From the NCBI GenBank assembly GCA_014238055.1, contig JABABV010000001.1:184938-248937 (forward strand): a stretch of 64,000 bases of DNA, written 5' to 3'. Source of the stretch: Mycoplasmatales bacterium. Lineage in GTDB: Bacteria > Bacillota_I > Bacilli_A > Mycoplasmatales > JABABV01. Below, piece after piece: positions 4,024 through 36,901 of this stretch. How positions within the stretch are numbered: position 1 is the first letter of the stretch; every line of letters starts with the position of its first letter. The notes below the pieces were generated by a model that was given only the letters and a program-made list of their open reading frames with translations, had not been told where the DNA came from and did no database searches. Both the position numbers and the translations under genes were made by a program.

Positions 4024-4024
4024 T

Positions 4025-4165: not shown

Positions 4166-4223
4166 AGTGCTTTTTTTCTTACATATATATTATAATAAAG
4201 ATAAATGTTGTTCGGAGGTACTT

Positions 4224-4877: not shown

Positions 4878-4887
4878 AGGTATGTGC

Positions 4888-6240: not shown

Positions 6241-6243
6241 AAA

Positions 6244-8808
6244 ATGACAAAATGAAAGATTTATGTAGTCCCCCATACTCATTGAGATCGCGAATGATAT
6301 TTTTCACAAAGTCGCGCCAATACATTACTAGTTAATAATATGAAAGAAATTATTAAAGTTCTTGAAACTAATTCTAAATATCATAATTTTGTTTTAGATG
6401 GACAAATGTCAGTTATTAATGATTTAGAAGCTAATCATAAAAATTTATTACCACAAATTAAAGCACTTGCTAAAAGTAATAAATTACTTTTAGGACCGTG
6501 ATATTCACAACCTGATAGTTTTAATTCATTAGGTGAATCAATTATTAGAAATTTAGAATATGGAATTTCACAAAGTCAGCAATACGGTAATACTTTAGAT
6601 AGTGCTTATTTACCAGATTCTTTTGGTTTCAATCATAACTTACCACAAATATTTAATTATTTTGAACTTAAAAACATGATCTTTTGACGTGGCATGAAAA
6701 AAGAAGATAACGACAAAACGATTTACTTTAATTGAACAGGAGTTGATGGTAGTTCAATTCCTGCTTATTGTTATAATTCTGGTTATTGAGTTTTTGGTGG
6801 TGTTTTTCCATATTGCCAAATCACTCAAAAAAATTATCAAACTAAAACTCAAAAAATATTAGCAGACTTAAAACCTCATTTAGAGAAAATTAAAGCTCGT
6901 TCAAACGATACTAATAAATCAATCATCTTACCTTTCGGAGGCGATGAAGGTCCAATCACTAATGAACTTACATTAGTGATTGAAGAATTAAATAAAATCG
7001 ATGACGAACATAGTTGAGAGATTAGTAATTTCAAAACTTTTTTCAACGATGTTCCTGATCCTACTTATGAAATTAAAGATAGTCTTCATTGACCATACTT
7101 AGCGAGAATTCATCGTACGATAGCATCTTCAAGATATGACATTAAAAAATTATTTCGTCATTGTGAAACAAAACTATATTACGAACTAGAACCGTTACAA
7201 ATAATTTATCGACAAATCGATTCCAAATATCATAATCAAGAAATTATCGATGAAGCGATGAAGAAAATTTTAGTATCACAAGCGCACGATAGTTTAGGAT
7301 GTTGTAATAGTGATATTACTAATCGTGATATTACTAATCGCTTAACCCAAGCTCTAGAAATTATTAAAATGGAAATTGCAATCATTAAAAAGAAACTTTT
7401 CCATAAACTAAATTTAAATAAAGCAACTGATGTTCTTTGTTTTAATTTAGCACCTTACGCAAGAGCGGTTACTTTTGATAGTGTTATTTCTTCTACGAAT
7501 AAATTCATCAAAAGTAAAGAAGCTAAATTCGTTTTAGAAACTCGCGAAACGACTAAAAAATTTACTTTATTAGAACACGATCTTTATTATGAACATCAAG
7601 TTTCTATTAAAACTCCTAAAATGAAAGGTCTTAGTTTTCAAATTATGAAAATCGTTCATAGCGATGATAGTAAAGCTGAACATTTTAACAAGACTAATAT
7701 GATCGGTAATCCCGAACAACAAATTTGAGTTTATAAAGATTCAGTTTACTATAGTGAAAAAGATGAACATTTAAAAGATTTTATCAATATCTTACCGTTT
7801 GATGATTATGGTGATAGTTATGATTTTTCTCCTAATCCTCAAAATGATAAAACTACTAAAATTTCTGCCACTAATAAAGTAACTCATAATATTTCTCACC
7901 GTTTCTTTCAAATGGTTAGTTTTGTTCATAACGTTAAATATAGTAATGATTTAGAACAAAAATTTATGATTACGATTAAAAAGTGATTCGATAAGCCTTA
8001 TGACTTAACGATCACAACTGATAATAAATCAATCGATACTAAATGAGTTTTAAATATCGGTTTAGACGAAGAAATTGAGTTAGCTGATGTTTACGCTAGT
8101 CAATCATTAGCGATCGATATTCGCACAGATTTTACCGAACTAGATTGACGCGCTAAAGGTTATCCGGAATTTCCTTGTCCAATCGCAACTAACGATGGTT
8201 TAATTCATATTCCTAAAGTTGATAACTTCTCTTTATTAACTTTAGGAAATAATGAATTTAGAACTTTAGAACAATCGTTGCAAGTTACTTTATTTCGTAG
8301 TTATGGAAAGATTGGCCGTCCTGATTTAATTTGACGACCAGGTCGTCCTTCTGGAATAAGTTTAGAAACTCCAGATGCCCAACTACAAAAAGAATTGCAA
8401 TTTGATTTTCAATTTACTTTTAAAAAGACAAACATTGCTCGTATATTAAACGATTGATTTTTCAAAGCTGATTTGTATTACGCTAACAATCCAAATGATT
8501 TAGATTTTTATGCTGATCGTTTCGTGGTCAATTATGAACATCAACTAGAACCGGTTAAAGCGAGTCTTAATAATTTAGAAATCGATAGCGATTTTTTCGT
8601 TAGCTCATTTCGTATTTTTAAAAATCGATATTACAAATTAAGAATTTCTAATTTAAATGCAAAATCAAAAACTTTCACAATTAAAAAAGATAATCACATT
8701 TTAGAATTTGCTATTGAAAAACATTTTCAACAAAAAAGTTATTCATTTATTAATGAAGAAGTTGAAATTAAACCTCAACAATTTTTAACAATTATTATTA
8801 AAATTTAG
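6244..8808 (+). CDS. GH38 alpha-mannosidase (MngB-like)
   Basis: N-terminus MTKWKIYVVPHTHWDREWYF..., then GPWYSQPD and LPDSFG motifs of GH38. AAGGAG upstream. Fragments 7258-7728 and 8473-8808 are in the same frame. Confidence 0.85.
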
Positions 8809-18641: not shown

Positions 18642-19025
18642 ATGGAAACAATTTTTTCTAAAATCATTAAAGGCGAAATCCCTTCTTACAAAATTTTTGA
18701 AGATAGCGATCATTTCGCCTTTCTTGATATAAATCCCGAAAATAGCGGTCATTTCTTAGTAATTCCTAAAAAACACAGTACTAACCTTATCGACATAAAA
18801 GAAGCTCAAATAGGCCCTTTATTTAGCACTGCTATAGCATTAGCTAAAGCAATGATCAAACCTCTAAACGCTAATAGCTTTAAATTAAGAGTCGCTAGCG
18901 GTAAAGAAGCTGGTCAAATGGTCTTTCATACTCACGTTCATATCATTCCTTTCTACGATGATAAAAACAAACAAATAGATAAAGATGATTTAAAGTTAAT
19001 TCATGCAACTATGATTAAAAAATAG
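18642..19025 (+). CDS. HIT-family (histidine triad) nucleotide hydrolase
   Basis: Intact ORF with the HTHVHIIP histidine-triad motif. Confidence 0.9.
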   Translation: METIFSKIIKGEIPSYKIFEDSDHFAFLDINPENSGHFLVIPKKHSTNLIDIKEAQIGPLFSTAIALAKAMIKPLNANSFKLRVASGKEAGQMVFHTHVHIIPFYDDKNKQIDKDDLKLIHATMIKK

Positions 19026-19072
19026 ACAATAAAAAAAAACAGACATTCAAGTCTGTTTTTTTTTATTGTCTA
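19023..19072. terminator. Bidirectional terminator (22-bp perfect palindrome arms)
   Basis: TAGACAATAAAAAAAAACAGAC-ATTCAA-GTCTGTTTTTTTTTATTGTCTA, overlapping the HIT stop codon and ending 2 nt before the stop codon (19074-19076) of the convergent gene. Confidence 0.7.
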
Positions 19073-19073
19073 T

Positions 19074-21974
19074 TTATCCATATATCTTAAACATAAAGAA
19101 TACGAATATTATAAATAGAATTATACAAGCTGTTAAAGCATAAAATTTAAAATAATTAACTCGTTTAATAATTTTTTTATTATAAATACGATCTTTAATA
19201 TTTGCATAATTTAATTTATCATAGATTTTTTCATTGATAGAGATCAATATCAGAGTAGACATAGATACCACTAGCGGAACAATGTATGTTCAGAAGCGAT
19301 AGAACCCTGTAAACGTTTTGATATTGTCTTCAGTGGCATTCTTAAACGAACTGAAGTTAATTGCGTAAAATAGAGCATCTATTGTACCTGCTCCACCTGG
19401 AGTAGGCATAAATGTATTAGCTACGTTAACTACTTTTTGAGATGATAAGAAAGCAAAGTAACTAATATCACTATCTAAAGTACCCATTGATTTTTGAGCG
19501 AAGTAATAAACTGCTAAAAAAGATGGGGCCGCATTAACTATACATAAAAGAATCATCGTTTTTTTATCTGTTCAGATTATTTTAATACTTCTTCGAAGTT
19601 CGCTAGCCTCGTGTTCTAAACGAGCATATTCACGATCATAATCTTTAATATATCTAACTTTAACTCCTAGTTTTAAGAAGAAGCTAATTAAAAGTCGATG
19701 AATTTTTGTTGATAATCCAGCAATAAAAAATACTGCTGAAACTAAAATATCCATAAAAAATCCAATAATAACACAAGATAAAGCTCAATATCCTGCCGCT
19801 CCATTATGGAAAAAAGTTTGTTTTAAAATAACTAACCCAGCAGGTATTAAAATAATGGCAATAATAATTTTAACTACTTGATTTACGATCGTTTCAACTA
19901 ATAGAGCTGATATTAATTTATTAGTTTGAACTTTTTTTCTTCGTAAATATCAAATTTGTAAAATTTGTCCTCCTGTTGAAAAAGGAGTTATTCCAGAAAC
20001 TATTTTATCTAAAATTTGAGCAATAAAGGCATGACGGTATTTCAAACCAGTCTTAAATTTCTTTCCAACAATCCAGACCCCTAAAGCACTAAAAGGTGCT
20101 CAAGTTAAAAAGATAGTGAATAGAAATACCACAAAATAAACAGCATTTTGACTACTTAAATCTCTCGAACTATGATGTCAAATAGCGGTAAAAATATCTC
20201 ATGATTTACGACTGTCATTACTATAAAATCTATAAACTAATATTAATAAAACAGCCATTAACATAACGCTTCAGAAAAGTCATATCCCAATTTCTTTTTT
20301 AGAAATTTGGGTTTTTTTAGAAACGTTTGTTAATATTTTAATTTCTTTTTCAAATTTCCTAAATTTAATTATTGCATTAATTTTATTGTTAGCAATTGTA
20401 CAATAATAAATTTTTAATTTAGGTTCTGTACCTGAAGGTCTAACAGCGATTCAAGAACCATCTTCTAAATGGAATTTAATCATGTTAGTTTTTGGAAATC
20501 CAGAAACACCTTTTCTAAAATCTTCTGTTTTAAGAACTTTAATTCCTCCAATAGAAGAAATATCTTGTCTTAAAGTATGCATGAAGTCTTCAACTTCAGC
20601 TTTATTATTAATCATTATAGATGTAGTTTGTTCATAATAATAACCATACTTATTATAAATTTCTAACAAAACATCGTTTAACGTTTTGTTTTGTGATTTA
20701 TAATAACTAGCAGCATCAGCAATTAATAGAGCTGTTTGAAAACCATCTTTATCACGACATAAATCGGAATTTATTAACGAACCATAAGATTCTTCAAAAC
20801 CATAAAGAAAGTCTTCGTTTTTAGTATTTTCAATTAGATGACCGATTCATTTAAATCCTGTTAAAGTATCTTTTACTTTAACATTATATTCTTTAGCAAT
20901 AGCATCAACTAAAGTTGTTGAGACGATTGATTTAGCAATATATTTATTTTTTAAATCAGCTTTAGCTGTATTAGATAAAATATATTCTAATAAAATAGCA
21001 GCTGTTTGATTACCATTTAAAATTTTATATTGTTTATCAACTTTTAAAACAACACCGACACGATCAGCGTCAGGGTCAGTTGTAATTCCAATATCAAAGT
21101 TTTTTTTCTTTAAAAATTTTATAATTTTATCATAAGCAGTATTGTTTTCCGGATTAGGAGATTTAGTTCCGTTAAAATCAGGGTTTGGATCTCTTTGCTC
21201 GGGAACAGTAAAATATTGATAATTATTCTCTTCGAATAAACGTTCCATTATTTTTAAAGATGTTCCTTGTTGCGGGGAAAATACGATCGATGCTTTTTGA
21301 CTAAGTTGATTGTTAAATTGAATTTTATTAAGATCGGTAATATAATTATCGATTATTTTTTGCGGTATTGTTGATCATTTTTCTTGATCACTTAAAGCAA
21401 TATCAAAAAAATCAATTTTTTTAGAAATTAAACTTATTTCGTCAGTATCTTTTGGCAATAATTGACAACCATTATGATCGTAGACTTTAAAACCATTATA
21501 CTCTTTTGGATTATGTGATGCAGTGATCACAATTCCCGACGCTAAATTCATTTTTCTAATTACATAAGATAAAAGCGGTGTTGGTTGTAATTCGTTGTTT
21601 TCAAAAAGAAAAACTTTAAAACCGAGATCAATTAAAACTTTGGCACTAATCTCACTAAATTCATTCGACATATGACGATTGTCATGAGCGATAACGATTC
21701 CTTTAGTTAAGTTATTGGCATTTTGTTTTTTTAAAAATTGACCTAAACTTCATGCTGCTTTTCTAATAGTATAACTATTAAGACGTTTGTTACCAGGACC
21801 CATTAGTCCACGTATACCTGCTGTTCCAAACATTAATTCTTCACCAAAATAAGCATTAATTTTATTGTGCTTAATTTTAGTTAGTGCATTATGATTTTTA
21901 GCATCTAAAGATTTATTATTTAATCATCGTTTGTATTCTATTTCGTTTATAGTTAGTTCTTTATTTTTTTTCAT
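19074..21974 (-). CDS. In-frame fusion: phosphoglucomutase/phosphomannomutase (N, about 555 aa) + LPG_synthase_TM / UPF0104 flippase-like membrane domain (C, about 410 aa)
   Basis: N-terminal part: FGTAGIRG, TASHNP (catalytic Ser), DPDADR, RPSGTEPKLKIYY. C-terminal part: multiple TM helices and a PTPGGAG motif. All fragments lie in one frame. I translated 20453 down to 19752 codon by codon and found no TAA or TAG, only TGA. Confidence 0.7.
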
Positions 21975-21982: not shown

Positions 21983-23125
21983 CTATTTATAGCGTTTACG
22001 CGCCTCTTTACGCGCTTCTTTATTGTGACGATTATTAATTCGATCTTTATATTTAGTTGATAAACGATTGTAGTAACTATCTCATTCTTGACAAATAATG
22101 TCATGATCATATTTTTTAGCTATCGCTTGGCTATATCCTTTAGCAGCAGCATAGCTTTCTTTATTAGTCGCTAATTTATCGATTATTTTAGCAAAATCAG
22201 CATTGTTATTAGCTTTTAAATATTTTGTAAAATTAAATATTTCAGCATATTCAGGTAAATCTCTTAATAACATTGGCACATTTACATTAGCTGCTTCTAA
22301 AATTGACATTGGAAACAACTCGTTTAAAGCCGGCATAAAGAAAAGGTCAGAAACGTTTAAATAATCATTAACTTCTTCTGGACTTACGCGCCCTTTAAAA
22401 AAGACATTGTCAGGAGGATTAGAAACAAATTGTTCGATTTCTTTATGTCCATGACTCATTTTTTTAAAGGCGAACGAACCAAGTCAAATAAATTTATATT
22501 TTGGTAACTTTTTAGCTACTTCAATAAAATCTTTAACACCTTTTCTAGTTTGTAATTGACCCACAGAAACTACAATAAATTCATCTTTAAATAAATTATA
22601 TTTTTTACGTAGCTCTAATCTTTCTACATTAGAAACAGGTGAGAATCCGCTGCTATCTACTACATTAGGAATATAAGTTATTTTTGAACGATCAACACCG
22701 ATATCAACTAAATCATTAATGAACATAGGATTAACTACAACTAGTTCATCTACGTGAGTTAAAAAATAATTAGATCAACTAATAATTTTTTTTAAAAATA
22801 AACGATGGATTCAATTTTGAGGATCGTATGAATTATCTGTATGTGTGTGCGGAATAAAATGTACGTTAAAAATTGTTACTCCATGATATTTACCGCGACG
22901 CATATGTCATTTGTAACGTGGATCTGGTGTGTTCATATGAATAAAATCAGCATCAGATTTACGATGATTTGTAGTTTGATATTCACTAGCAAAAGGTTCT
23001 TTTTCAAAATGTTTTAAGAACTCTCTTCAAGCAGAACCTGGACCAGTAGCTTTAACTCTATGAGCACTTGACAATAAATTTATTGATAGATTTTTTTTAC
23101 CTATTAAAGATTTTTTAATCGACAT
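21983..23125 (-). CDS. GT4-family glycosyltransferase (380 aa)
   Basis: AAGGAG before ATG 23125. GT-B C-terminal domain with EX7E (ELFPMSILEAANVNVPML). The ORF track stop at 22082 is a TGA; the true TAG is at 21985-21983. Confidence 0.8.
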
Positions 23126-23155: not shown

Positions 23156-23881
23156 TTATTTATTTAGTAAACTAGCTGCTTCTTGATCAACTATAACAGT
23201 TACATTTGGATGGTCTTGTAAAATTGTACAAGGTCATTTAGTATCAATTTTACCTTCCACTAATTCTTTAACTGCTTCTGCTTTATGAGCTCCGTCAGTT
23301 AATAATAAAATTGTTTTTGCTTGCATAATTGATTTTATTCCCATAGTAATTGCTTCTTTAGGAACTTCATTTGCTGAATCGAAAAATCTAGCATTAGAAT
23401 CAATCGTATTTTGAGTTAATTTAACTACATGAACTTCACTATCAAAACTAGATCCTGGTTCATTAAAAGCGATATGGCCATTTTGACCTAAACCTAATAA
23501 TTGAACATCAATTTTATAATCGTTTAATTTATTTTGAAAATCACTAATATTGTTTTTTAAATTCCCGATTCCAGATACGATATTAATGTTTTCATCTTTG
23601 ATATTTAATTTTTCAAATAAAAGATTATGCATAAAATAATCATATGACTGAGGATGAGACTTTTCTAAACCAACATATTCATCTAAATTAAAAGTAGTAA
23701 TTTGGCTTCAATCAGTTAATTTATTTTTATAAGCTTCAATCAGTAATTCATAAGTTCTAATTGGACTTGAACCTGTAGCTAACCCTAAAATTGAATTTGG
23801 TTTTTTGATAATTTGTTTATTTAAAAAACTACTAGCTTTTAAAGCAATTTCTTCTTTATTTTTACAAATAATTAGTTTCAT
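23156..23881 (-). CDS. nagB: Glucosamine-6-phosphate deaminase
   Basis: LGLATGSSP..., LLGLGQNGHIAFNEPGS. The start ATG overlaps the nagA TAA (TAATG). Confidence 0.9.
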
Positions 23882-25092
23882 TAAAATTCCTCTTCCAATA
23901 TTATATTTTCTGTTAATTTTCCAAAAAGTGGTTTTCCTTTAATGAATACTTCAACTATTTCATAATATTTATCAACAATAATTATATCAGCTATTAAACC
24001 TGACTTTATCGTTCCAACTTTATTATCGATTTTTAATTGTACGGCTGCATTATAAGAACTCATGCGAACAGCATCATTAATTGAAGCATCGCTAAATTTC
24101 ATAATGTTTCTAAAACATTCAATCATTGTAGCGCCACTTCCAGCAATCGTATCAGTTCCAGTCAATGTTAATAGTCCGCCTTTTTTAGTAATGTCGAATC
24201 CGCCTGATTTATAACCAGAACCGTCTTGACATCCAGCAGGACTAATAGAATCAGTTACTAAAGTAATTTGTTCAGGTCCTAAAATACTATAAGTTATTTT
24301 AATGATTTCTTTTCTCAAATGAATCCCATCACAAATAATCTCGTGTAACATATTAGTATTTTTTGTAGCGTAGTTTAAACTAGCAGCTACTATCCCAGGC
24401 TTACGATGGTGAAACCCACTCATTGCATTATATAAATGAGTTGTGTGATTAGCACCTAATTCAAAAGCATCAGTCGCTTCTAAGAAAGTTGCTCCTGAAT
24501 GACCTACCGAAGGAATTATATTTAAATCTATTAAACCAGTAGTGAAGTTTTCATCTGCTAATTCTGGCGCGTAAGTAATAATTTTAATATTACCTTTAGC
24601 GATTTCTTGCATTTTTTTAACTTCTTCTAAATTTGGTTTTCTTAATAAATTAAGTTTATGAGCACCTTTAAATTTAGGTGATATATATGGACCTTCCATA
24701 TGACAACCTATTAAAGTAGCGGCATCATTTATTTCATCTTTTGATTGTAAATCAATGACTTTAGTCATGACTTTTAAAGCTTTATTTATATTAGGTATCG
24801 ATGCAGTTATTGAGGCTCCTACTACTGAAGTAGTTCCTCCTTTTGGTAAGTTTTGCAAAAATACTTTTCAACTTTCGATAGTACTGTCCATAAAATCTTT
24901 TTCAAAAGATCCATGAATATGCATATCTATAAAACCAGGAATAGCGATTAATTCACGACAATCAATACTATCGACTGGCGCTTTATCATCGCTAATAATA
25001 TCTGATATTTTATTCTTTTTAATGATAATTGCAGCATTTTCAATTGTCATATCATGATTTACAATTTTTAAATTTTTTAAAGATATTGACAT
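23881..25092 (-). CDS. nagA: N-acetylglucosamine-6-phosphate deacetylase
   Basis: PGFIDMHIHG metal site, HMEGPYIS and THLYNAM motifs. Two fragments are joined by one TGA at 24868-24870. Confidence 0.9.
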
Positions 25093-25124: not shown

Positions 25125-25910
25125 TTATTTTTTATTTTCTTGATATTTTTGCATAATACGGATCGCTAATTGGATCGCATTGTAAATAGCTACTACGATA
25201 GCATAGAATAAACGAATTTTTTGAATTCTACGAATGATTGTTGCTTCTTGTTCAGTTAATTCACCATTTTTAACACATTTCTTTAAGAATGGTTTCATAA
25301 CTTTAACAATTTCAATATATCATAATACTGATATTCAAATAGCAATTAATATAACTGCTGTATAAATTATATTCAATACTCAAATTACACCATTAACTTG
25401 AAAAGTACTAGCATTTGTATTTTGAAATATCGGTATCATTATCATAATCCCTAAAATAAATACTAAACAAATTAAAAGTCCTGATAAAGAAGCAGAAAAT
25501 TTATATAGAAGTCGGCGTTTTGCGCTTTTTTCTACTAAAGTTGCATAGTAAGCATTTTCAGAAGCTTCATTTAATGTTCATAAAGATCTACGTCTGGCAG
25601 TTCACGGTTTTAAAGTTAAAGCTTTTCTCGCTTTAGAATAGTTTCAAAATTTATATCCACCAAAAAAATATCTTGATCTTACTTCAATATTTTTTTTAAC
25701 TCCAAAAGCTCTCATAGTTTTAACAGAAAAATCTGATCCTGTATAATTATGACTATTACCTCTATGAATTCATGAATGTTTTATTCAATATATAAAATAT
25801 ACTATTGCCGTTACCATCATCACTAAACCAACGATAGCTAACAAAGTAGCCATCACAATTAATCCAGGAGTCATCTTAACGTTCATATCTGTTGTTAATA
25901 AAGAAATCAT
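25125..25910 (-). CDS. Hypothetical membrane protein (261 aa)
   Basis: Open in code 4. At least three hydrophobic helices (LIVMATLLAIVGLVMMVTAIVYF, LLICLVFILGIMIMIPIF, VIWVLNIIYTAVILIAIWISVLW). No family recognised. Confidence 0.5.
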
Positions 25911-27438: not shown

Positions 27439-29193
27439 TTATTTACCTGTAATATCTTTTAAAGCATTTGCTACAAATTCTACTTTAGGTCCAATAATTA
27501 CTTGAACTGATTTTTTAGAAGGTGTAATAACACCAAATACTTGTAATTTTTTAATAGCATCTTTTTTAATTATAGAACTATCTAAAACATTAAGTCTTAA
27601 TCTAGTCGCACAATTTCCAACTGATACTATATTTTTATTTCCTCCTAAAAGAGGAAGTAATTTAGTAGCCAACAGTTTATATTTAGCTTTTTTATCTACA
27701 ACTGCTGGTTTTTCTGGTTTTTCATTAATTGTATCTTCATTATAACCTAAGTGATCTTCTGGTTTTTCAGTTGGATCACTAATAATGTTTGAATTTCTAC
27801 CTGGTGTAGATAGGTTGAATTTCAAGATAAATGTTCTAAATGTGAAGTAGTACAGCGCTGCTGTTGCCGCTCCGATTGGTCATAATCATAATGGATTTGC
27901 TCAAATTGAGTGAGCATCTTTGAAGTAATCTCATGAAGTAGGTAATGAAATTAAGTAATCAAATAATCCTGCTGAGAATCCGAATCCAATTCTAACTCCC
28001 ATAGCAACAAATAACATACTTATGATTCCAGTAAAGATTACATGGATACCATATAATACTGGTGCTAAGAATACGAATGAGAATTCAATTGGTTCAGTAA
28101 TACCAGTAAAGAATGATACTAGTGCTGCTGATCCTAAAATACCCATAGTTGCTTGACGATTTTCTATATCTGAACAATAGACCATCGCTATCGCTGCTGC
28201 TGGTAATCCAAACATCATGATTGGGAAGTAACCAGTTTGAAATACCCCGGCTCCTCTAATACCATTAGCAAAAGCTGAGATATCTCCAAAAGCATTAACT
28301 TCACCTTTACCTGGAATAACACTCATTCCATCTAACGGAATTTGGAATCAAAATATTGTATTAACAATATGATGTAATCCGAATGGTAATAATAAACGAT
28401 TTAGAACTCCATAAATTCCGGCAAGAGCTCCAACTGTCATAGAATTAACAAATCCTGATTTTCCTTTGGCTGCTGCTGATTGATGAACAACTCATCCACC
28501 AAATTCATCAAAAACATATGATATTCATGGCAGAATTAATGCTGCTAGAATACCAAACACCATAGTTGCTCCAGTAACGATCATCGGAATGAAACGTCTT
28601 CCTGAAAAGAAACCTAAAGCTGTTGGTAATTCAATTTCTTTATAACGATTGTATAAGGCAGCTGTAATAAATCCACAACCAATTCCACCTAATACGCCCG
28701 GTATTATATTTCAAGATGCAACTAAAGCATCTTTACCATCAACAATACCACCTGTCGTTGTATATAATAATTTAGATAAGAATAAATGGCGTATGTGATT
28801 CGTATCGCTTGGGTCGATAACATAGTGACCATTTGATTCTAAAGCTCCTACCATTACGTGTGAATAAAATAAACTAGGTAATGCATGTTCTGCTAATAGG
28901 CCTTGTAGTCCTAATAAACTTAACGCACCTACTAGAGCTGCTTCTCCTCGAGAATCTTTAGTTAATCCAAATGCAATTCCGATTGCAAAGAATAATCCAA
29001 GATTGTTGAAGAACGCTCCTCCGGGGGCACTTATAATATTTCCAAATATAGCTTGTAAATTTGTAGCATGATCTGCTCCTGTGTTATGGAATGATCCTGC
29101 GAACACTCCAACACGTAGTAATAAAGCTGCTACGGGCATACAAGCAATAGGATATAGAAGTGCTTTACCTAAATTTTGCAATTTAGCTAACAT
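27439..29193 (-). CDS. PTS EIICB, glucose/N-acetylglucosamine family (584 aa, no EIIA)
   Basis: Polytopic EIIC (three fragments in one frame) and a C-terminal EIIB with VGNCATRLRLNV. Confidence 0.85.
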
Positions 29194-31182: not shown

Positions 31183-31211
31183 ATAATCAACTCCTAATTA
31201 TTTTATATTTT

Positions 31212-32219
31212 TCATTCTATAACTGTTTTAAATTCATTTTTAAGATCTTTGGAAAAAGCCTCGGAGACGTCTTTCAAAGATTCGGTAACAATGATTTCAT
31301 CTATTAAGTTTTTACTTAATTCACTGAATTCTTTATTTTTCATTAAATTAATAATAGCTTTGAAATCATCATAACCACTACGAGACCTACCTATAATAGT
31401 AATCCCTTTTTCTAATAAATCACGATATTTAAAATTAAAATCACTATCGCTGATTCCTAAAAGAATAATTGTACCTTCAGGAATCAATAATTTAATAGCT
31501 TCAATTACAATATTGTTTTGCTGACTTCCGCCAACACACTCAAAAACAAAATTATAATTATTATTATCTTTATCAGTTGGTTTAGTATTAAATTTATTTT
31601 CAATATGTTGAAAACGCTTTAACTTAGAATCATGTTTTCCAAATAACGAAATTTCTGCATCAGGTAATAAAAACTTAATAATCAAACTAGTTGAAAAAGC
31701 AATCGGCCCATCACCAATAATAGCAACTTTAGGTTTTTTGATTTTTTGAGCTTTTTCTAAAATAGCATTTATACCATGATGCGCCACTGATAAAGTTTCA
31801 CACATTACTAAACTTTCTCTATCGATATCATTAGCTTTAATTAATCGATTACTATCCATATCAATAAATTCTTGCATAAAACCATCAAATCCAGAACCTC
31901 TAAATTTACCTTGAACATAGTTTTCGGCAAAATCATTACATAAATAATCTGGCGTATTAGGTACCATAATAACTTGATCACCGATTTTAAATTTATTACT
32001 ACTATCAAAAACAACTTCTCCAATTGCTTCATGAATCAAAGCCATTGGTAACTTTTTGTTTAAAATTTCTTGATCTCGATTACCTAAAAAATAACGTTGA
32101 TCAGCTTTACAAATAGCTAATAATTTTGGTCTTACGATCACTTTATCATTTAATTTAATATCTCGATACGTTTCAATAAATTGGAATGGTTCGATTAATT
32201 GATATACTTTATTAATCAT
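31212..32219 (-). CDS. tarJ: Ribulose-5-phosphate reductase (ribitol-5-phosphate 2-dehydrogenase), TarJ
   Basis: MINKVYQLIEPFQFIE...ICKADQRYFLGNRDQEILNKKLPMALIHEAIGEVVFDS...MVPNTP...GFDGFMQEF closely tracks S. aureus TarJ as I remember it. The ATG at 32219 overlaps the tarI stop; two further in-frame ATGs lie upstream (32225, 32231). Confidence 0.8.
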   Translation of the reverse strand: MINKVYQLIEPFQFIETYRDIKLNDKVIVRPKLLAICKADQRYFLGNRDQEILNKKLPMALIHEAIGEVVFDSSNKFKIGDQVIMVPNTPDYLCNDFAENYVQGKFRGSGFDGFMQEFIDMDSNRLIKANDIDRESLVMCETLSVAHHGINAILEKAQKIKKPKVAIIGDGPIAFSTSLIIKFLLPDAEISLFGKHDSKLKRFQHIENKFNTKPTDKDNNNYNFVFECVGGSQQNNIVIEAIKLLIPEGTIILLGISDSDFNFKYRDLLEKGITIIGRSRSGYDDFKAIINLMKNKEFSELSKNLIDEIIVTESLKDVSEAFSKDLKNEFKTVIE

Positions 32220-32925
32220 CCTCATTACCAATTTCTACTATCGCTCGCGCTAATCTTAAATCGTAAGGAGTAGTTATTTTTATATTAGATTTTTTTCCAT
32301 AAATTAAATGAATTTTTTTACCAAAATGAGAAAACAATCCACAAGCATCAGTGAAATTATCGCCTTCTACTTTATTATATAATTTTTTGAATTCAGATGA
32401 ATTAAAACTTTGCGGTGTTACTCCTTGTAACATTTTTTTACGTTCAGGAATACTAGTAATTACTTTACCATCTTCACTAAAAACAATCGTATTGTCAGAA
32501 GTTACGACTGTATCTAATATTTCGTGTTTTGATATTAGATCAACATGTTTTTGAATTGTTTCATAAGATACAAAAGGTCTAACTGAATCATGAGTGATTA
32601 AATTAAAATCTTTTGTTTTTAATAATTTTTCTGAAAAATCAATTGAATTTAAAATTGTTTTATTTCTATTGATTCCTCCTTCACAAACAAAAATAGTTTT
32701 ATCTATTTTACCCGGGAAATTATTTTTTATTTCTTCAATAACATAGTTTTTTCATTTTTTATGACTTGCTATTACAATCGCATCAATATTTTTTACAAAT
32801 AAAAATCTTGAAACAGTATGAATGAAAATATCTTTATTGGCTATTTTTAAAAATTGTTTAGGTTTATCGATGTTTCCCATTCTATTTCCGACACCACCTG
32901 CTAATATGACAGCTATATTTTTCAT
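32212..32925 (-). CDS. tarI: D-ribitol-5-phosphate cytidylyltransferase (IspD/TarI family)
   Basis: AAGGAG before ATG 32925. MKNIAVILAGGVGNRMG...KPKQFL, THDSVRPF. Translationally coupled to tarJ. Confidence 0.8.
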
Positions 32926-32942
32926 AGTAAACTCCTTTTTAA

Positions 32943-34949
32943 TTAAATTAATTTTTCGACATATATATCTTTAATTTTCATGATTGGTTTTAACAAATTA
33001 GTTTGAGTGCTATAACTATTAAATTTCATTATTAATGTTATATTCCAACTTTTTAATTTATTCACTTCGTCTAAATCAAGATTATTATTTTTCATATCTT
33101 TAATAATTGGTTGCGCTTTTTTTCATGATCCGAATTTATTATTATTAGTTCATCACGCAGAATAAGAATTTAAAAAATAACCTTTATTTACAAAATTCTG
33201 CATTAAAAATAATTCTCTATCTGCAAGTAAAATCATATCATTATTAGTTACATAATTGTTTAATGAATTAAAATCTCGATTAAAATAAGTTTTTCCAGAA
33301 TTATTTGTGTTATTAATTAAAACCCCTTCACCTAAATTATATTTTATCGATGCGCATTTTGCATAAATTGATATTGAACTAGCTGAAAAAATTACCAAAG
33401 GAACGAAAGCAAGCGTTCCGTAATTAATTTTTTTATTAATTTGAATAAATTTAACATCTTTAAGACTCATCATAATTATAAAAATAGCGAAAAAATTACT
33501 AGATATAATATATATTCTATAAGAAGAATCAGATAATATTTGATAAAATATAATTCAAAAACAAGGATTATAAACAGTAAAAACTAATCAAGTATAATAA
33601 TGAAATTTTTTAGTTTTGATAGTTTGATATATTACTAACGTTCATAAAACTACAAATAAGATAGCTAAATCTATATTAAATAAACCTGCTTTTCCGTTTA
33701 GATATAAACTTAAATTTGATCAAGCTAATTTATCAATTAGAGTTTCAATTTTATAATTAGGGTATTTCTCATTAAAAATATTTCAATGATTATTAATTAC
33801 CATAAAAACTAAAGACATCAAAGATATTGATAAAATAGTTATAATTATTTGTTTGTTTGTGACTTTATTAATTATTTTATTTAAAAAATCCACTATTTTA
33901 GTTTTATATATTAGAATAATCATAATCGTTAATATTGATATTTCAACTAAAGTCATTATTATATTTGGAGTTGAAAACTTTATCATAGTCATAAATATAA
34001 ATAAAAAAACAATAATAGATAATAGTTCTTTGTTAATTTTTTTATTATAAACAACAATTAATATAACAAATAATAATTCAGGAAATATAACATAAGAAGA
34101 AACCACAGAATTAGCAATAGCAAATATGAGTAAATATAAATTACTAATTTTAGAATCTATTTTGTAAATAAAAATAATAAAAAATAATAATAAACTACCT
34201 AATGCAAAAGATAAATCTGTTCCTCTAACGCTTCATTTTAAAAAATAATTTTGCATAAAAGTTAAAACTATAGCTAAAAATATAAATATTAATATATTTC
34301 AATTTCATCTACTACTACCATAAATATAAATTAAATATATTAATATCATAGAAAATGTAAATATTAATATTGAGTTCATCATTAAAGTAGAATAGATTAA
34401 ACTTCCAGAAGCCATTTTGAAGACACTGATTATTAAATAATAACTTTCATTTAAATAATAAGAACTGACATCGTGATTATTTCACGAAAAACTCGTATTA
34501 ATATTAATGTGCTTAAATCAAGAATTAGATTTAACTAAATCTAAATAATAACGATTATCAAAATTAAAATTTTTAACTGGTTGAAAATTAAAAATAATTA
34601 AAATCAATAAAAATAAACTTCATATGATTAAATCTACTTTTACGTTATTTCAATTAAGAATTATTTTTTTATTAATTATTTTTATAATAAATAAAAACCA
34701 AGTAATAAAAATAAATAATGCCAAAATGATGAATCAAACAATAAAATCTAAAACGAATATAAATGGTAATAGATTAGCGATGAAAGATAAAAATAATAAA
34801 GTGATGAAAGCGGCGCAAAATCTGATTATTGATTTAGTAAACCTACTATCTTCTCCGTCTTTAGAAATCTTTATAATATTTATAGGAATTAAATAAAATA
34901 ATGGAATTTCTACTAATAATAATATTAAAAATATAATTATCGGTGTCAT
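32943..34949 (-). CDS. Large polytopic membrane protein (668 aa), candidate polymerase / GT-C-type transferase / ligase
   Basis: Three track fragments share one frame. More than 12 hydrophobic helices, then a roughly 150-aa hydrophilic C-terminal domain. The ATG overlaps the HAD stop (TAATG). No family motif recognised by eye. Confidence 0.6.
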
Positions 34950-35785
34950 TAATTATCATCTTCTTTTAATAAATTCTTATTAATTCAACTAGCAACCCCA
35001 TTATCTTTATGTCCAAGTGTGCTTTCTGAAGCAATTACTTTTAAAGTTTCACTAGCGTTTTTCATACTCACCGATACTCCCACTACATTAAACATGCTTT
35101 CATCATTCATAGAATCACCAATTGCAGCAGTTTGATCTAATTTAATATTTAATTTATCACAAAGAAATTTAACTCCATTACCTTTAGAAGTTTTTTTTCC
35201 AGTGATTTCAATAACTCAACCATTTCCAGATGTAGCAATTTCTAAATGCGGAAATTTAGCATCTAACTCTTTTTTCAATAGTTTAACAATTTTACGTTTA
35301 CGACCAGTAAACATAATTTTAAAATATGATTGGTCTTTAATTTTATCTAAAAAATATTCTTTATGTAAAATAGCATCCATTTTTGATCACTTAACATAAA
35401 GTTTAGTTAATAAATTAGTGCCATAAAACTCAAATGGTTCATCTACTTTAATAGAAAAATTATGATTAACAGCATATTTAATAATTTCATTAACATCTTT
35501 TTTCTCTATTTTTTTATTATAAAGACTTTTCTTTTTAGAGATATCTTCTATATGCGCACCATTAAAAGAAACGAAATAATTTCCAAAATTATTAACTCTT
35601 ATTTTTTCTTGAATCTTTCGACAACTATTAGTTCCTCTACCACTATTTACAATAACATAAATACCTTGTTCTTGCGCCGCTTTACAAGCTGCTAAATTTT
35701 CTGGACTAATATAATGTCTTTGATGACGTTTTCCGTTAACTAAAGTTCCATCTAAATCTAAAAAAATCGCTTTTATTTGATGCAT
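34949..35785 (-). CDS. HAD-IIB (Cof-type) phosphatase
   Basis: IKAIFLDLDGTL (DxD nucleophile), SGR, GDSMND motifs. Confidence 0.8.
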
Positions 35786-35787
35786 AA

Positions 35788-36783: not shown

Positions 36784-36870
36784 AATACCTGCTTTCGTCT
36801 ATAAAAATATAAAACAATTTTATATATATAATACCATAATTAATAAATTAAACCAATTTTTACAAAATAA

Positions 36871-36890
36871 AAAGCAGAATATTCTGCTTT
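36871..36890 (-). terminator. Intrinsic terminator after trxA
   Basis: Perfect palindrome AAAGCAGAAT/ATTCTGCTTT followed on the minus strand by a T-rich run. Confidence 0.65.
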
Positions 36891-36901
36891 TATATTTATA
36901 G

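What the first reader, a model, noticed from the sequence alone, without database searches (positions are those of the whole stretch)
19074..21974. Phosphohexomutase fused in frame to a flippase-like (MprF-type LPG_synthase_TM / UPF0104) membrane domain, downstream of a GT4 glycosyltransferase
A complete alpha-D-phosphohexomutase is present (TASHNP catalytic serine, DPDADR metal loop, RPSGTEPKLKIYY, plus the usual C-terminal tail of about 45 aa). It runs without any TAA or TAG into ...SKKTQISKKEIGIWLFWSVMLMAVLLILVY..., which looks like the natural N-terminus of a UPF0104/LPG_synthase_TM protein. That domain has a PTPGGAG motif further on. I traced every codon from 20453 to 19752. There is no ATG at the junction, so the membrane domain cannot easily be made separately.

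A soluble sugar-phosphate mutase tethered to a putative lipid flippase, 8 nt downstream of a GT4 (EX7E) transferase, suggests channelled synthesis and translocation of a glycolipid or lipid-linked glycan. I do not know of this domain combination being described.
Basis: seen in the sequence. Interest (0 to 1): 0.7.

Follow-up and report, generated by a model that had tools for sequence, protein, structure and literature searches.

The report
Sugar-phosphate mutase fused to lipid flippase
A wall-less bacterium (a mycoplasma relative) encodes one 111-kDa protein joining an apparently active sugar-phosphate mutase to an MprF-type lipid-translocating membrane domain; the fusion is real and conserved, probably helps make and export a membrane glycolipid, and explains the origin of unrecognised 'dead-mutase' versions found in cultured mycoplasmas.

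Summary
Read with genetic code 4 (TGA=Trp), window 19074..21974 (-) is one 966-aa ORF. It has a complete PgcA/PGM2-type alpha-D-phosphohexomutase (residues 1-549, all catalytic loops intact), a 9-residue basic linker, and a PF03706 (MprF-TMD1/YbhN/"PplT") membrane domain. A confident model of the membrane domain matches only MprF structures. It is not an assembly artefact. At least 46 protein clusters (50% identity) share the architecture, all tested ones lie in code-4 Mollicutes, and three 66-68% relatives keep the whole nagA-nagB-GT4-fusion gene order.

In 41 of 67 family members the mutase domain has lost its catalytic residues while the membrane domain stays conserved. Those degenerate forms sit in cultured Mycoplasmopsis/Mesomycoplasma and are annotated only as "flippase-like/YbhN" proteins. 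Also, the nearest stand-alone relatives of the membrane domain sit next to diacylglycerol-glycolipid glycosyltransferases.

Best reading: a membrane-tethered mutase plus glycolipid translocator working with the upstream GT4. The dead-mutase relatives argue that metabolic channelling is not the whole reason for the fusion. It is a new variant of a known kind (MprF-like two-module proteins), and I found no literature describing it. Function is inferred, not shown.

The parts
19074..21974 (-). Whole fusion gene, 966 aa, 110.8 kDa, pI 9.5 (genetic code 4)
   Evidence: Continuous frame under table 4, 14 in-frame TGA. Pfam PGM_PMM_I-IV plus LPG_synthase_TM. Coordinates and mass checked.
20328..21974 (-). 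Cytoplasmic alpha-D-phosphohexomutase module, residues 1-549 (62.8 kDa), ending in helix 531-549
   Evidence: Pfam domains I-IV. AF2 pLDDT about 90 and Foldseek TM-score 0.76-0.85 (normalised to target) against solved PGMs 2Z0F, 9DU5, 3OLP. 38-44% identity to unfused 'phospho-sugar mutase' proteins of about 560 aa.
21507..21524 (-). Catalytic phosphoserine loop TASHNP (Ser153)
   Evidence: Invariant in 19 fused homologues as TASHNPKEYNGFKVY. Kept in 26 of 67 family members.
21060..21077 (-). Metal-binding loop DPDADR (residues 300-305)
   Evidence: Invariant D300, D302, D304, R305. Coordinates checked.
20781..20795 (-). Sugar-binding loop EESYG (residues 394-398), of the PGM type (EES) rather than the GlmM type
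   Evidence: Invariant E394, E395, S396, G398. Assigning the loop type to glucose-phosphate specificity rests on my own knowledge of the superfamily.
20418..20441 (-). Phosphate-binding loop RPSGTEPK (residues 512-519) in domain IV
   Evidence: Invariant R512 to E517.
20301..20327 (-). Short basic linker NVSKKTQIS (residues 550-558) between the mutase and TM1
   Evidence: Low-confidence segment 551-557 between helix 531-549 and helix 559-584 in the AF2 model. No conserved internal start codon.
19185..20300 (-). MprF-TMD1/YbhN-type membrane domain, residues 559-930 (eight TM elements including two broken helices)
   Evidence: PF03706 E 7.8e-25. AF2 of this half from a 62-sequence alignment: pLDDT 88.6, pTM 0.86. 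The top six Foldseek PDB hits are all MprF (7DUW, 9GOE, 7F47, 6LVF, 9J8S, 9J8Q), probability 1.00, TM-score 0.40-0.44, followed by a drop to TM about 0.2.
19941..19988 (-). First helix break with invariant TPxxxGG (663-669), followed by WYLR (675-678); candidate re-entrant hairpin equivalent to MprF TM3a/3b
   Evidence: Invariant T663, P664, G668, G669, W675, Y676, R678. TP/GG and W675-Y676 are kept in nearly all of the 62 core degenerate and intact members. The fourth WYLR position (R678 in the window protein) varies (K, M, N, S or Q in some), and the five weakest-scoring 852-912 aa members (P0197, P0214, P0248, P0249, P0256) depart from the TP..GG motif. Helices 646-662 | 668-679 in the model. 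The MprF hairpins are described in PMC11980842 and PMC8131360.
19386..19403 (-). Second helix break with invariant TPGGxG (858-863); candidate equivalent of MprF TM7a/7b
   Evidence: Invariant T858, P859, G860, G863. Helices 839-852 | 864-876 in the model.
19569..19640 (-). Basic amphipathic helix 779-802 (YDREYARLEHEASELRRSIKIIWT) in the predicted cytoplasmic TM5-TM6 loop, with conserved D780, R794, W801
   Evidence: Conservation, helix. In MprF the TM5-TM6 loop contacts the soluble domain (PMC8131360). A contact with the mutase here is inference only.
19080..19154 (-). Extra C-terminal TM helix (residues 941-965) after a Lys/Arg-rich stretch
   Evidence: Hydropathy peak 944-962 and 9 K/R in the loop 914-943. 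Helix 941-965 in the models.
19025..19070 (.). 20-bp bidirectional terminator hairpin 3 nt after the stop codon, shared with the convergent HIT gene (18642..19025, +)
   Evidence: Terminator scan, distance checked, HIT domain.
21983..23125 (-). GT4 glycosyltransferase, 380 aa, EX7E at residue 269; AAGGAG Shine-Dalgarno upstream; stop codon 8 nt before the fusion's ATG
   Evidence: Pfam Glycos_transf_1 E 6e-23. Best NCBIfam matches are IagA/BgsA (147 bits) and the processive DAG alpha-glucosyltransferase Dgs (123 bits), both below their cut-offs. Gene order conserved in L001-L003. Upstream sequences.
23156..25092 (-). nagB (23156..23881) and nagA (23881..25092) directly upstream, same strand, conserved in gene order with GT4 and the fusion
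   Evidence: Pfam Glucosamine_iso and Amidohydro_1. Gene order in L001-L003.

Best explanation
The gene encodes a genuine bifunctional membrane protein of a code-4 Mollicute.

Its N-terminal 62-kDa module is a PgcA/PGM2-type alpha-D-phosphohexomutase that stays in the cytoplasm. It most likely still interconverts hexose-6-phosphate and hexose-1-phosphate, the precursor of the UDP-sugar.

A 9-residue basic linker holds this module against the membrane, on an MprF-TMD1/YbhN-type domain. By analogy with MprF, that domain moves a lipid from the inner to the outer leaflet.

The gene is co-transcribed, and probably translationally coupled, with a GT4 enzyme related to diacylglycerol alpha-glucosyltransferases. 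The most likely cargo is therefore the glycosyl-diacylglycerol that this GT4 makes on the inner leaflet. It could be further decorated, for example with phosphocholine by the LicD/Mf1-like enzymes encoded 15 kb away.

Shown: the fusion, its conservation, the intact catalytic motifs, the MprF-like fold, and the operon with GT4.

Inferred: mutase activity and sugar specificity, lipid translocation, the identity of the cargo, and any physical or kinetic coupling between the two halves.
For: The fusion is real and ancient:
- 19 fused homologues down to 31% identity have no frame break.
- An exhaustive HMMER search of 1.84e9 representatives gives 53 hits at E<=1e-30, almost all 890-990 aa with the match in the C-terminal half, then a gap from 156 bits to 89 bits or less for stand-alone proteins.
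- Tested loci use TGA as Trp.

The mutase looks active: all four functional loops are invariant in the intact subgroup, and the fold matches solved PGMs.

The membrane half is MprF-like: PF03706 scores above its cut-off. The confident model (pLDDT 88.6) matches only MprF structures. The two invariant motifs lie at two helix breaks, as with the MprF TM3a/b and TM7a/b hairpins (PMC11980842).

Link to glycolipids:
- The GT4 lies 8 nt upstream and is closest to IagA/BgsA/Dgs.
- The order GT4-fusion is conserved in three relatives.
- Distant fused homologues lie among GT2, GT4, Glf, UDP-glucose dehydrogenase and LicD genes.
- Stand-alone relatives sit in pgk|PF03706|GT4|tpiA and in a cluster of two UgtP-like genes, a deacetylase, YkoP and PF03706.
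- Published GT4 + UPF0104 operons make glycolipids: gpgSDF (PMC12713373) and hexSDF (PMC10128005).
- Mycoplasmas are known to make alpha-Glc-DAG and phosphocholine-Glc-DAG through Mf3 and Mf1 (PMC11982090), and the window has an Mf1-like LicD.
Against: - No activity was measured for either half.
- The GT4 scores far below the NCBIfam cut-offs for IagA/BgsA/Dgs (147 against 460 bits), so its acceptor and sugar are unknown.
- No galU-type gene lies next to the fusion; the only sugar-1-P nucleotidylyltransferase-like ORF in the window (38167..39024) is a generic N-terminal match in the second glycan locus (TIGR01099 galU 29 bits against a 327-bit cut-off). The pathway is therefore not contiguous.
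- 41 of 67 family members have a dead mutase domain but a conserved membrane domain, so precursor supply cannot explain why the two modules stay together.
- The Foldseek match to MprF is specific but only moderate (TM-score 0.40-0.44, rmsd 8-13 A), and sequence searches of the PDB find nothing.
- The MprF YRxxY/Glu-Arg gate is not recognisably conserved.
- MprF TMD1 can scramble many lipids (PMC11980842), so the cargo need not be a glycolipid.
Confidence: 0.55

Rival explanations
1. The mutase-fold domain is mainly a non-catalytic partner of the translocator. It could be a cytoplasmic cap that recognises a sugar or sugar-phosphate head group, or senses sugar-phosphate levels, and loads or gates the lipid channel, much as the MprF soluble domain docks on TMD1. 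In the window clade it happens to retain catalysis, perhaps because it is also the cell's only phosphohexomutase. In most mycoplasmas it has become a pseudoenzyme.
For: - 41 of 67 members lack the catalytic Ser, the metal loop and the phosphate loop, yet keep TPxxxGG, WYLR and TPGGxG.
- The degeneration is graded, from domains still recognisable as PGM_PMM_I-III to undetectable ones.
- In the P0005/P0136 pair the membrane halves are 66% identical and the N-domains 40%.
- Degenerate N-domains keep full-length similarity to the NCBIfam MAG5620 'putative phospho-sugar mutase' model, so the fold is retained rather than deleted.
- Linker length and pattern are conserved across the family.
Against: - In the window protein every catalytic residue is invariant across 26 intact members, which points to selection for catalysis here.
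- No structure or contact data show that the two halves touch. I had no access to inter-domain confidence values.
- Binding of a lipid head group by a PGM fold has no precedent that I know of.
Confidence: 0.25
2. The two halves are functionally unrelated. A housekeeping mutase, needed for pentose or hexose phosphate metabolism, simply became anchored to a general phospholipid scramblase (PplT/YbhN-like) that serves membrane biogenesis. The GT4 neighbour is a coincidence of operon packing in a small genome.
For: - PaMprF TMD scrambles many lipids without an energy source (PMC11980842).
- E. coli YbhN/PplT is proposed to be a general phospholipid translocase (preprint 10.1101/2022.03.11.483950).
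- nagA and nagB in the same operon are catabolic genes, not glycolipid genes.
- The contexts of distant fused homologues differ from the window's.
Against: - The fusion has persisted across at least 46 clusters with a conserved linker.
- The N-domain is retained even after catalytic death, which is hard to explain for an unrelated passenger.
- Glycosyltransferase neighbours recur around both fused and stand-alone relatives.
Confidence: 0.15
3. The fusion is an artefact: a sequencing or assembly error removed a stop codon or frameshift, or TGA was wrongly read as Trp, so there are really two genes.
For: The genome is a metagenome-type assembly (unnamed NCBI contig of 286 kb). Under table 11 the frame is broken 14 times.
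Against: - Independent assemblies of many organisms carry the same continuous architecture.
- TGA sits at invariant Trp columns and outnumbers TGG 172 to 5.
- No start codon or ribosome-binding site exists for a separate membrane protein.
Confidence: 0.02

Closest known systems
MprF (multiple peptide resistance factor; structures 7DUW, 6LVF, 9GOE)
   Same: Two-module logic: a cytoplasmic enzyme fused to a PF03706 membrane domain with two broken or re-entrant helices that translocates a lipid. The membrane half's only significant structural matches are MprF.
   Different: - The soluble module here is N-terminal and is a sugar-phosphate mutase, not a C-terminal tRNA-dependent aminoacyl-PG synthase.
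- No TMD2 (TM9-14) is present, only one extra C-terminal helix.
- The mutase product is a soluble metabolite, not the lipid cargo itself.
- The YRxxY/Glu-Arg gate is not recognisable.
- Sequence similarity to MprF is undetectable by phmmer or hmmsearch.
Stand-alone YbhN / 'PplT' / UPF0104 proteins and their fusions (AglD-type GT-A fusions, GT-B, kinase and others; preprint 10.1101/2022.03.11.483950)
   Same: Same Pfam family (PF03706). The preprint documents that this domain is fused to many enzyme types and is encoded next to lipid-synthesis genes.
   Different: The preprint names GT-A, GT-B, kinase, HAD, O-antigen ligase, methyltransferase and 'phosphotransferases (cl37506)'. It does not mention a phosphohexomutase or Mollicutes, and I could not establish what cl37506 is. 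Stand-alone relatives score 108 bits or less against the fused-family profile, compared with 241 bits or more for the window clade.
gpgSDF (P. aeruginosa, PMC12713373) and hexSDF (C. difficile, PMC10128005) glycolipid operons
   Same: A GT4 glycolipid synthase encoded beside a UPF0104 'flippase'. The product is a membrane glycolipid presumed to be flipped outward. One stand-alone relative of the window's membrane half lies in a hexSDF-like cluster.
   Different: Those operons have a polysaccharide-deacetylase gene and a separate flippase, with no mutase. Here no such deacetylase lies next to the GT4, and the flippase-like domain is fused to a mutase. Flippase activity is unproven in those systems as well.
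PgcA - GtaB - UgtP - LtaA glycolipid-anchor pathway of Bacillota (knowledge of the pathway; PMC7961091 for GtaB and the glucolipids)
   Same: The same chemical logic: phosphoglucomutase, UDP-glucose, glucosyl-DAG, then a flip to the outer leaflet. The window's mutase belongs to the same family of roughly 560-aa 'phospho-sugar mutases'.
   Different: In that pathway all steps are separate proteins and the flippase (LtaA) is an MFS transporter. Here the first and last steps share one polypeptide and the translocator is of the MprF type.
Mycoplasma 'flippase-like / YbhN family / LPG synthase TM domain-containing' proteins of about 960 aa (e.g. WP_130429583.1 Mycoplasmopsis phocirhinis, WP_146367686.1 M. 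anserisalpingitidis, WP_280101738.1 Mesomycoplasma lagogenitalium) and the NCBIfam NF045968 'MAG5620 family putative phospho-sugar mutase'
   Same: Same family and architecture by profile search and alignment. Their N-domains match NF045968 end to end.
   Different: Their N-domains have lost the catalytic Ser, the metal loop and the phosphate loop. The window protein keeps all of them and so looks like the ancestral, enzymatically competent state.
Mycoplasma fermentans GGPL pathway (Mf3 alpha-glucosyl-DAG synthase, Mf1 LicD-type phosphocholine transferase; PMC11982090)
   Same: A mycoplasma glycoglycerolipid built from alpha-Glc-DAG. The window has a DAG-glucosyltransferase-like GT4 and a LicD whose best NCBIfam match is Mf1.
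   Different: No translocator has been assigned in that pathway. The window's LicD scores 77 bits against a cut-off of 225, so it is not an Mf1 equivalog. The link to the fusion gene is inference only.

Membership tests
alpha-D-phosphohexomutase superfamily (PGM/PMM/GlmM) | Four-domain architecture (PGM_PMM_I-IV) | tested here: met
   All four Pfam domains score above their gathering cut-offs. The model superposes on solved PGMs with TM-score 0.76-0.85 normalised to target.
alpha-D-phosphohexomutase superfamily (PGM/PMM/GlmM) | Catalytic phosphoserine loop (T-A-S-H-N-P) | tested here: met
   TASHNP at residues 151-156, invariant in 19 homologues.
alpha-D-phosphohexomutase superfamily (PGM/PMM/GlmM) | Metal-binding loop D-x-D-x-D-R | tested here: met
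   DPDADR at residues 300-305.
alpha-D-phosphohexomutase superfamily (PGM/PMM/GlmM) | Sugar-binding loop and phosphate-binding loop (domains III and IV) | tested here: met
   EESYG at 394-398 and RPSGTEPK at 512-519, both invariant.
alpha-D-phosphohexomutase superfamily (PGM/PMM/GlmM) | Mutase activity and sugar specificity | not testable with these tools
   No NCBIfam equivalog cut-off is reached; the best is Arch_GlmM at 202 against 439 bits. The closest named relatives are generic 'phospho-sugar mutase' proteins.
PF03706 / TIGR00374 flippase-like domain (MprF TMD1, YbhN, 'PplT') | Profile match above the curated threshold | tested here: met
   PF03706 at 88.4 bits against a cut-off of 33.4, over residues 604-903. 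NCBIfam TIGR00374 was not reported for the window protein at E<=0.01, but it was for the family members P0154 and P0176.
PF03706 / TIGR00374 flippase-like domain (MprF TMD1, YbhN, 'PplT') | MprF-TMD1 fold | tested here: met
   Model pLDDT 88.6. The top six PDB matches are all MprF, probability 1.00, TM-score 0.40-0.44, with the next hits at TM about 0.2. The match is moderate, not close.
PF03706 / TIGR00374 flippase-like domain (MprF TMD1, YbhN, 'PplT') | Two re-entrant or broken helices (TM3a/b, TM7a/b) | tested here: inconclusive
   The secondary structure shows breaks at 663-667 and 853-863 that carry the invariant TPxxxGG and TPGGxG motifs. I could not inspect coordinates to confirm re-entrant geometry.
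PF03706 / TIGR00374 flippase-like domain (MprF TMD1, YbhN, 'PplT') | Lipid translocation activity | not testable with these tools
   Needs a liposome scrambling assay or an in vivo leaflet-exposure assay.
MprF proper (bifunctional aminoacyl-PG synthase/flippase) | C-terminal aminoacyl-PG synthase (GNAT-like) domain | tested here: not met
   No such Pfam domain is found. The protein ends about 35 residues after TM8 with one more TM helix.
MprF proper (bifunctional aminoacyl-PG synthase/flippase) | YRxxY motif on TM8 and the Glu-Arg gate (PMC8131360) | tested here: not met
   The window has FYRFWTY (891-897, that is YRxxxY). Only W895 of this stretch is conserved across the family; other members have K or other residues in place of R893.
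MprF proper (bifunctional aminoacyl-PG synthase/flippase) | Second TM subdomain (TM9-14) | tested here: not met
   Only one helix (941-965) follows the TMD1-like region.
GT4 diacylglycerol glucosyltransferases (IagA/BgsA NF053513; Dgs NF049987) | Equivalog-level profile score | tested here: not met
   147 against 460 bits and 123 against 500 bits. These are the best matches only, so the window GT4 is a relative, not a member.
GT4 (Glycos_transf_1) family | GT-B C-terminal domain with the EX7E motif | tested here: met
   PF00534 at 81.7 bits against a cut-off of 26.4. ELFPMSILE at residue 269.
hexSDF / gpgSDF-type glycolipid operon | Glycolipid GT next to a UPF0104 gene | tested here: met
   The GT4 stop is 8 nt before the fusion's start, and the order is conserved in L001-L003.
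hexSDF / gpgSDF-type glycolipid operon | Polysaccharide-deacetylase (D) gene in the operon | tested here: not met
   The upstream genes are nagB and nagA (an Amidohydro_1 GlcNAc-6-P deacetylase), not Polysacc_deac_1.
NCBIfam NF045968 'MAG5620 family putative phospho-sugar mutase' | Score above the subfamily cut-off (115 bits) | tested here: not met
   The window protein scores 71.3 bits. Degenerate fused relatives score 52-89 bits over nearly the full model.

The most novel reading that the evidence does not exclude
A Mollicute-wide protein family has recruited the phosphohexomutase fold as the dedicated cytoplasmic partner of an MprF-type lipid scramblase. The mutase fold binds, or even acts on, the sugar or sugar-phosphate head group of a glycolipid (for example 6-phospho- or phosphocholine-glucosyl-diacylglycerol) and hands it to the channel. 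The window's protein would be the still-catalytic ancestral form, and the versions in cultured mycoplasmas would be pseudoenzyme descendants. That would be a new kind of machine coupling head-group recognition to translocation, and it would identify the missing glycolipid exporter of wall-less bacteria.
Probability: 0.15. Interest if true: 0.8.

Novelty: new variant of a known kind. Interest (0 to 1): 0.6.

Why it matters
Mycoplasmas expose glycolipids and phosphocholine-glycolipids that act as antigens and virulence factors, yet no protein that moves them to the outer leaflet has been identified.

This fusion works as a 'Rosetta stone'. It ties an MprF/YbhN-type translocator to sugar-nucleotide precursor supply and to a diacylglycerol-glycosyltransferase-like GT4, which gives a concrete, testable candidate for that exporter.

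It also explains the roughly 540-aa N-terminal region of the ~960-aa 'flippase-like/YbhN' proteins annotated in cultured Mycoplasmopsis and Mesomycoplasma genomes. That region is a decayed phosphohexomutase.

A graded series from active enzyme to pseudoenzyme, always attached to the same membrane module, is a useful natural experiment on why enzymes stay fused to transporters. It also extends the list of partners of the MprF-type domain, which is of interest as an antimicrobial-resistance determinant.

Tried and rejected
1. Table-11 ORF calling fragments the gene. It was replaced by table-4 translation in Python.
2. Sequence searches of the PDB with the whole protein found only PGMs. A profile of the membrane half found nothing. 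The structural route was needed.
3. Foldseek with the full-length model was swamped by PGM hits. I re-modelled the membrane half alone from a deeper alignment.
4. My single genome-contig scan used one sequence and returned only three close relatives, so the taxonomic spread had to be pieced together from cluster look-ups.
5. The third word-indexed protein search, with an alignment of degenerate members, returned only the query and ordinary mutases, with no names.
6. The look-up of encoding contigs could not locate the window protein itself or P0144.
7. Kyte-Doolittle TM prediction missed the amphipathic and broken helices and was not used for topology.
8. I looked for a split version. Short high-scoring hits (P0141, P0155, P0175, P0178-P0181) look like fragments or truncated gene calls. 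P0181 (402 aa) begins within the conserved linker, and I could not decide whether it is a true stand-alone form.
9. I looked for a second mutase or a second PF03706 gene in the window and found none. The rest of the genome is not available.
10. A crude NJ tree of mutase domains did not recover all fused proteins as one clade, so I do not claim a single fusion event on that evidence.
11. Literature searches for the architecture, for YbhN in mycoplasmas and for MAG5620 found nothing relevant.
12. Artefact and misread-stop explanations were considered and rejected.

Full report
**1. What is in the sequence.**

The window has about 27% G+C. Its ORFs are shattered under the standard bacterial code. 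Under genetic code 4 the minus strand from 21974 to 19074 is one uninterrupted 966-codon frame. It has 14 in-frame TGA codons and a single terminal TAA.

TGA is clearly read as tryptophan. Long ORFs of the window contain 172 TGA and 5 TGG codons. TGA also occupies four of the five Trp columns that are invariant across the protein family.

Pfam finds all four phosphoglucomutase/phosphomannomutase domains between residues 48 and 524. It also finds LPG_synthase_TM (PF03706) at 604-903, with 88 bits against a gathering score of 33.

Between the two lies helix 531-549, then a nine-residue Lys-rich linker (NVSKKTQIS), then the first TM helix. The only in-frame start codons near the junction are M571 and M573. 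Both lie inside TM1 and are not conserved.

The product is 110.8 kDa. A 20-bp bidirectional terminator hairpin follows the stop codon by 3 nt and separates it from a convergent HIT-family gene.

**2. The fusion is genuine and old.**

A search of 5.8 billion proteins returned 18 proteins of 949-978 aa that carry both domain sets. Three are 66-67% identical to the window protein and the rest 31-36%. In their alignment there is no break at the junction, and both halves contain many invariant residues.

The three close relatives come from MAGs labelled Mycoplasmatales. They share the full gene order: conserved membrane ORF, nagA, nagB, GT4, fusion, then the convergent HIT gene and two lipoprotein-like genes.

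I then ran an exhaustive HMMER search with a profile of the membrane half alone, against 1.84 billion representatives. It gave 53 hits at E<=1e-30. Almost all are 890-990 aa long with the match in the C-terminal 420 residues. Scores then fall from 156 bits to 89 bits or less for stand-alone PF03706 proteins. At least 46 clusters at 50% identity therefore share the architecture.

All four fused genes whose DNA I could read contain 15-23 in-frame TGA codons, so they come from code-4 Mollicutes.

An HMM of membrane halves built without the window clade still scores the window clade at 241-251 bits, against 108 bits or less for stand-alone proteins. An assembly or sequencing artefact is excluded.

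**3. The mutase half.**

The phosphoserine loop TASHNPKEYNGFKVY is invariant among the 19 aligned proteins. So are the metal loop TDPDxDR, the sugar loop EESxG with the following RDKD, and the phosphate loop RPSGTE.

The model of this half has pLDDT of about 90 and superposes on solved phosphoglucomutases with TM-scores of 0.76-0.85.

The closest unfused relatives (38-44% identity) are proteins of about 560 aa named 'phospho-sugar mutase' or 'phosphoglucomutase'. They come from Spiroplasma, Erysipelotrichaceae and other Bacillota/Mycoplasmatota.

No NCBIfam equivalog threshold is reached, so the sugar is not established. From my own knowledge of the superfamily, the EES-type sugar loop is the phosphoglucomutase type rather than the GlmM type.

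**4. The membrane half.**

Sequence searches of the PDB find nothing for it, even with a profile.

A model built from a 62-sequence alignment is confident (mean pLDDT 88.6, pTM 0.86). Its six best matches among 350,000 PDB chains are all MprF structures from three species, at probability 1.00 and TM-score 0.40-0.44 over 357-386 columns. The next hits are unrelated transporters at TM about 0.2.

Published MprF structures show that TMD1 (TM1-8) is the lipid-translocating domain. They also show that it contains two re-entrant or broken helices, TM3a/b and TM7a/b (PMC8131360, PMC11980842). In the model the family's two most conserved motifs, TPxxxGG (663-669, followed by WYLR) and TPGGxG (858-863), lie exactly at two helix breaks. 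I could not inspect coordinates, so the re-entrant geometry is inferred.

Three MprF-specific features are absent:
- the C-terminal aminoacyl-PG synthase domain;
- the second TM subdomain;
- the YRxxY/Glu-Arg gate.

The domain is therefore MprF-TMD1/YbhN-like, and the protein is not an MprF.

With the mutase in the cytoplasm, the MprF topology places the Lys/Arg-rich 753-806 segment on the cytoplasmic face. That segment contains a conserved helix with D780, R794 and W801. Its position corresponds to the TM5-TM6 loop that contacts the soluble domain in MprF (PMC8131360). A contact with the mutase is a hypothesis only.

**5. An unexpected split in the family.**

I aligned 67 long members and read out the motif columns. 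In 26 of them, including the window protein, every mutase motif is kept. In 41 the catalytic Ser, the metal loop, the sugar loop and the phosphate loop are all lost. Across the 62 core members the membrane motifs TP..GG and TPGGxG and the W-Y of WYLR are retained with only occasional substitutions. The fourth WYLR position (R678) varies, and the five weakest-scoring members (852-912 aa) diverge further.

The decay is graded. Some N-domains are still recognised as PGM_PMM_I-III, some only as a trace of domain I, and some not at all. They still align end to end with the mycoplasma-specific NCBIfam model NF045968, 'MAG5620 family putative phospho-sugar mutase', though below its cut-off.

In one close pair (P0005 intact, P0136 degenerate) the membrane halves are 66% identical and the N-domains only 40%.

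Cluster look-ups show where the degenerate forms occur. They are in cultured Metamycoplasmataceae: Mycoplasmopsis phocirhinis, Mycoplasma anserisalpingitidis, Mesomycoplasma lagogenitalium and others. There they are annotated only as 'flippase-like domain-containing', 'lysylphosphatidylglycerol synthase TM domain-containing' or 'YbhN family' proteins. The intact forms I looked up are unnamed metagenomic sequences.

The window protein thus reveals where the unannotated N-terminal ~540 residues of those proteins came from.

**6. Context and likely cargo.**

The gene 8 nt upstream is a GT4 with an EX7E motif and its own AAGGAG ribosome-binding site. The fusion gene has none at a normal distance, which suggests translational coupling.

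The GT4's best family matches are the LTA-glycolipid-anchor enzymes IagA/BgsA and the processive diacylglycerol alpha-glucosyltransferase Dgs. Both are well below their thresholds.

Distant fused homologues lie among GT2, GT4, UDP-galactopyranose mutase, UDP-glucose dehydrogenase and LicD genes.

The nearest stand-alone relatives of the membrane half sit in two informative contexts:
- between pgk and tpiA, overlapping a GT4 gene by a few bases;
- at the end of a cluster with two UgtP/MGDG-synthase-type genes, a polysaccharide deacetylase and YkoP.

The second arrangement resembles the published hexSDF and gpgSDF glycolipid operons, in which a UPF0104 protein is the presumed flippase (PMC10128005, PMC12713373).

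Mycoplasmas make alpha-glucosyl-diacylglycerol and its 6'-phosphocholine derivative through Mf3 and the LicD-type Mf1 (PMC11982090). The window carries, 15 kb away, a low-GC locus containing:
- three LicD-like genes, one of which matches Mf1 best;
- a sugar-1-P/choline-P nucleotidylyltransferase-like gene;
- a bona fide ribitol-5-P cytidylyltransferase;
- a GT2;
- a 668-aa polytopic protein of unknown family.

No galU-type gene lies next to the fusion; the nucleotidylyltransferase-like ORF in that distant locus scores only 29 bits against the 327-bit galU cut-off.

**7. How it most likely works.**

The cytoplasmic mutase supplies hexose-1-phosphate at the membrane. A UDP-sugar is then formed by an enzyme encoded elsewhere. 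The GT4 glycosylates diacylglycerol on the inner leaflet. The MprF-TMD1-like domain moves the glycolipid, possibly after further decoration, to the outer leaflet of this wall-less cell.

Only the parts list, its conservation and the fold assignments are shown. Activity, cargo and coupling are inferred (confidence 0.55).

The dead-mutase relatives argue that substrate channelling is not what holds the two modules together. The main rival (0.25) is that the mutase fold is a structural, head-group-binding or regulatory partner of the translocator, and that the window clade has merely kept its enzymatic activity. The two readings are not mutually exclusive.

A functionally unrelated anchor-plus-general-scramblase reading (0.15) is weakened by two observations. 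The N-domain persists after catalytic death, and glycosyltransferase neighbours recur around family members. An artefact is essentially excluded (0.02).

**8. Unresolved.**

On the mutase half, the window clade is about as distant from the other fused proteins (40-45% identity) as from unfused mutases (41-44%). In a crude NJ tree the other 22 intact fused proteins form a clean clade, but the window clade does not join it. Either the window clade kept a slowly evolving ancestral mutase, or its N-domain was replaced or fused independently. The membrane half supports common ancestry.

I could not determine whether the genome has another mutase. I could not tell whether P0181 (402 aa) is a true split form. 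I also could not establish what the CDD superfamily 'cl37506 phosphotransferases' in the PplT preprint refers to.

**9. Novelty and score.**

The architecture exists in public sequence data, and its degenerate members are in RefSeq under generic names. Searches of 8 million open-access papers and preprints found no description of it, of YbhN-type proteins in mycoplasmas, or of MAG5620.

It is a new variant of a known kind: MprF-like enzyme-plus-translocator proteins and GT4 + UPF0104 glycolipid loci.

It matters for three reasons. It nominates a candidate for the unknown glycolipid exporter of mycoplasmas. It explains a widespread unannotated domain. It offers a natural enzyme-to-pseudoenzyme series on a constant membrane partner.

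Interest 0.6.

Noticed in passing
window 31203..41825 (-), GC about 22%: A second surface-glycan or teichoic-acid-like locus in a wall-less organism. It contains a Zn-ADH (TarJ-like?), a ribitol-5-P cytidylyltransferase above the NCBIfam cut-off (32212..32925), a Cof-type HAD phosphatase, a GT2, three LicD-like genes (37259..38155 matches the Mf1 GGPL phosphocholine transferase best), an NTP-transferase and an aminotransferase. Its GC is lower than the surroundings, which may point to horizontal acquisition.
   Followed up: partly
window 32943..34949 (-): A 668-aa highly polytopic membrane protein inside the glycan locus has no Pfam or NCBIfam match at all. It is a candidate polymerase, ligase or transferase of unknown family.
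   Followed up: partly
window 25125..25910 (-): A 261-aa membrane protein with no Pfam or NCBIfam match lies directly upstream of nagA. It is conserved in the same position in all three related MAG loci at 43-47% identity.
   Followed up: partly
L007-L009, positions 3821..7987 (Hadza gut metagenome, Spo0A-encoding Firmicute): A stand-alone PF03706 gene and a GT4 gene are inserted between pgk and tpiA of the glycolysis operon. This is an unusual place for a glycolipid synthase/flippase pair.
   Followed up: no
protein family (P0136, P0139, P0142, P0144-P0148, P0150, P0152-P0184 etc.): Most members of the fused family carry a catalytically dead mutase domain. RefSeq names them only by the membrane domain (flippase-like, YbhN, LPG synthase TM). 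The N-domains match NCBIfam NF045968 'MAG5620 family putative phospho-sugar mutase' below its cut-off.
   Followed up: yes
window 27439..29193 (-) to 23156 (-): A PTS EIICB that matches the GlcNAc-specific family best (below its cut-off), then metK, the unknown membrane ORF, nagA and nagB, all lie on the same strand upstream of GT4 and the fusion. Amino-sugar catabolism and glycolipid genes may be co-expressed.
   Followed up: partly
window 3194..4100 (+) and 42029..42603 (-): Two tRNA clusters (8 and 6 genes) account for the ORF-free, GC-richer stretches. No tRNA-Trp(UCA) lies in the window.
   Followed up: yes
window 19855..20139 (+), antisense to the fusion gene: An antisense ORF gives BLAST matches to antisense ORFs in L001-L003 at 68-79% identity. 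This is most simply a shadow of the conserved sense frame, not a gene.
   Followed up: no
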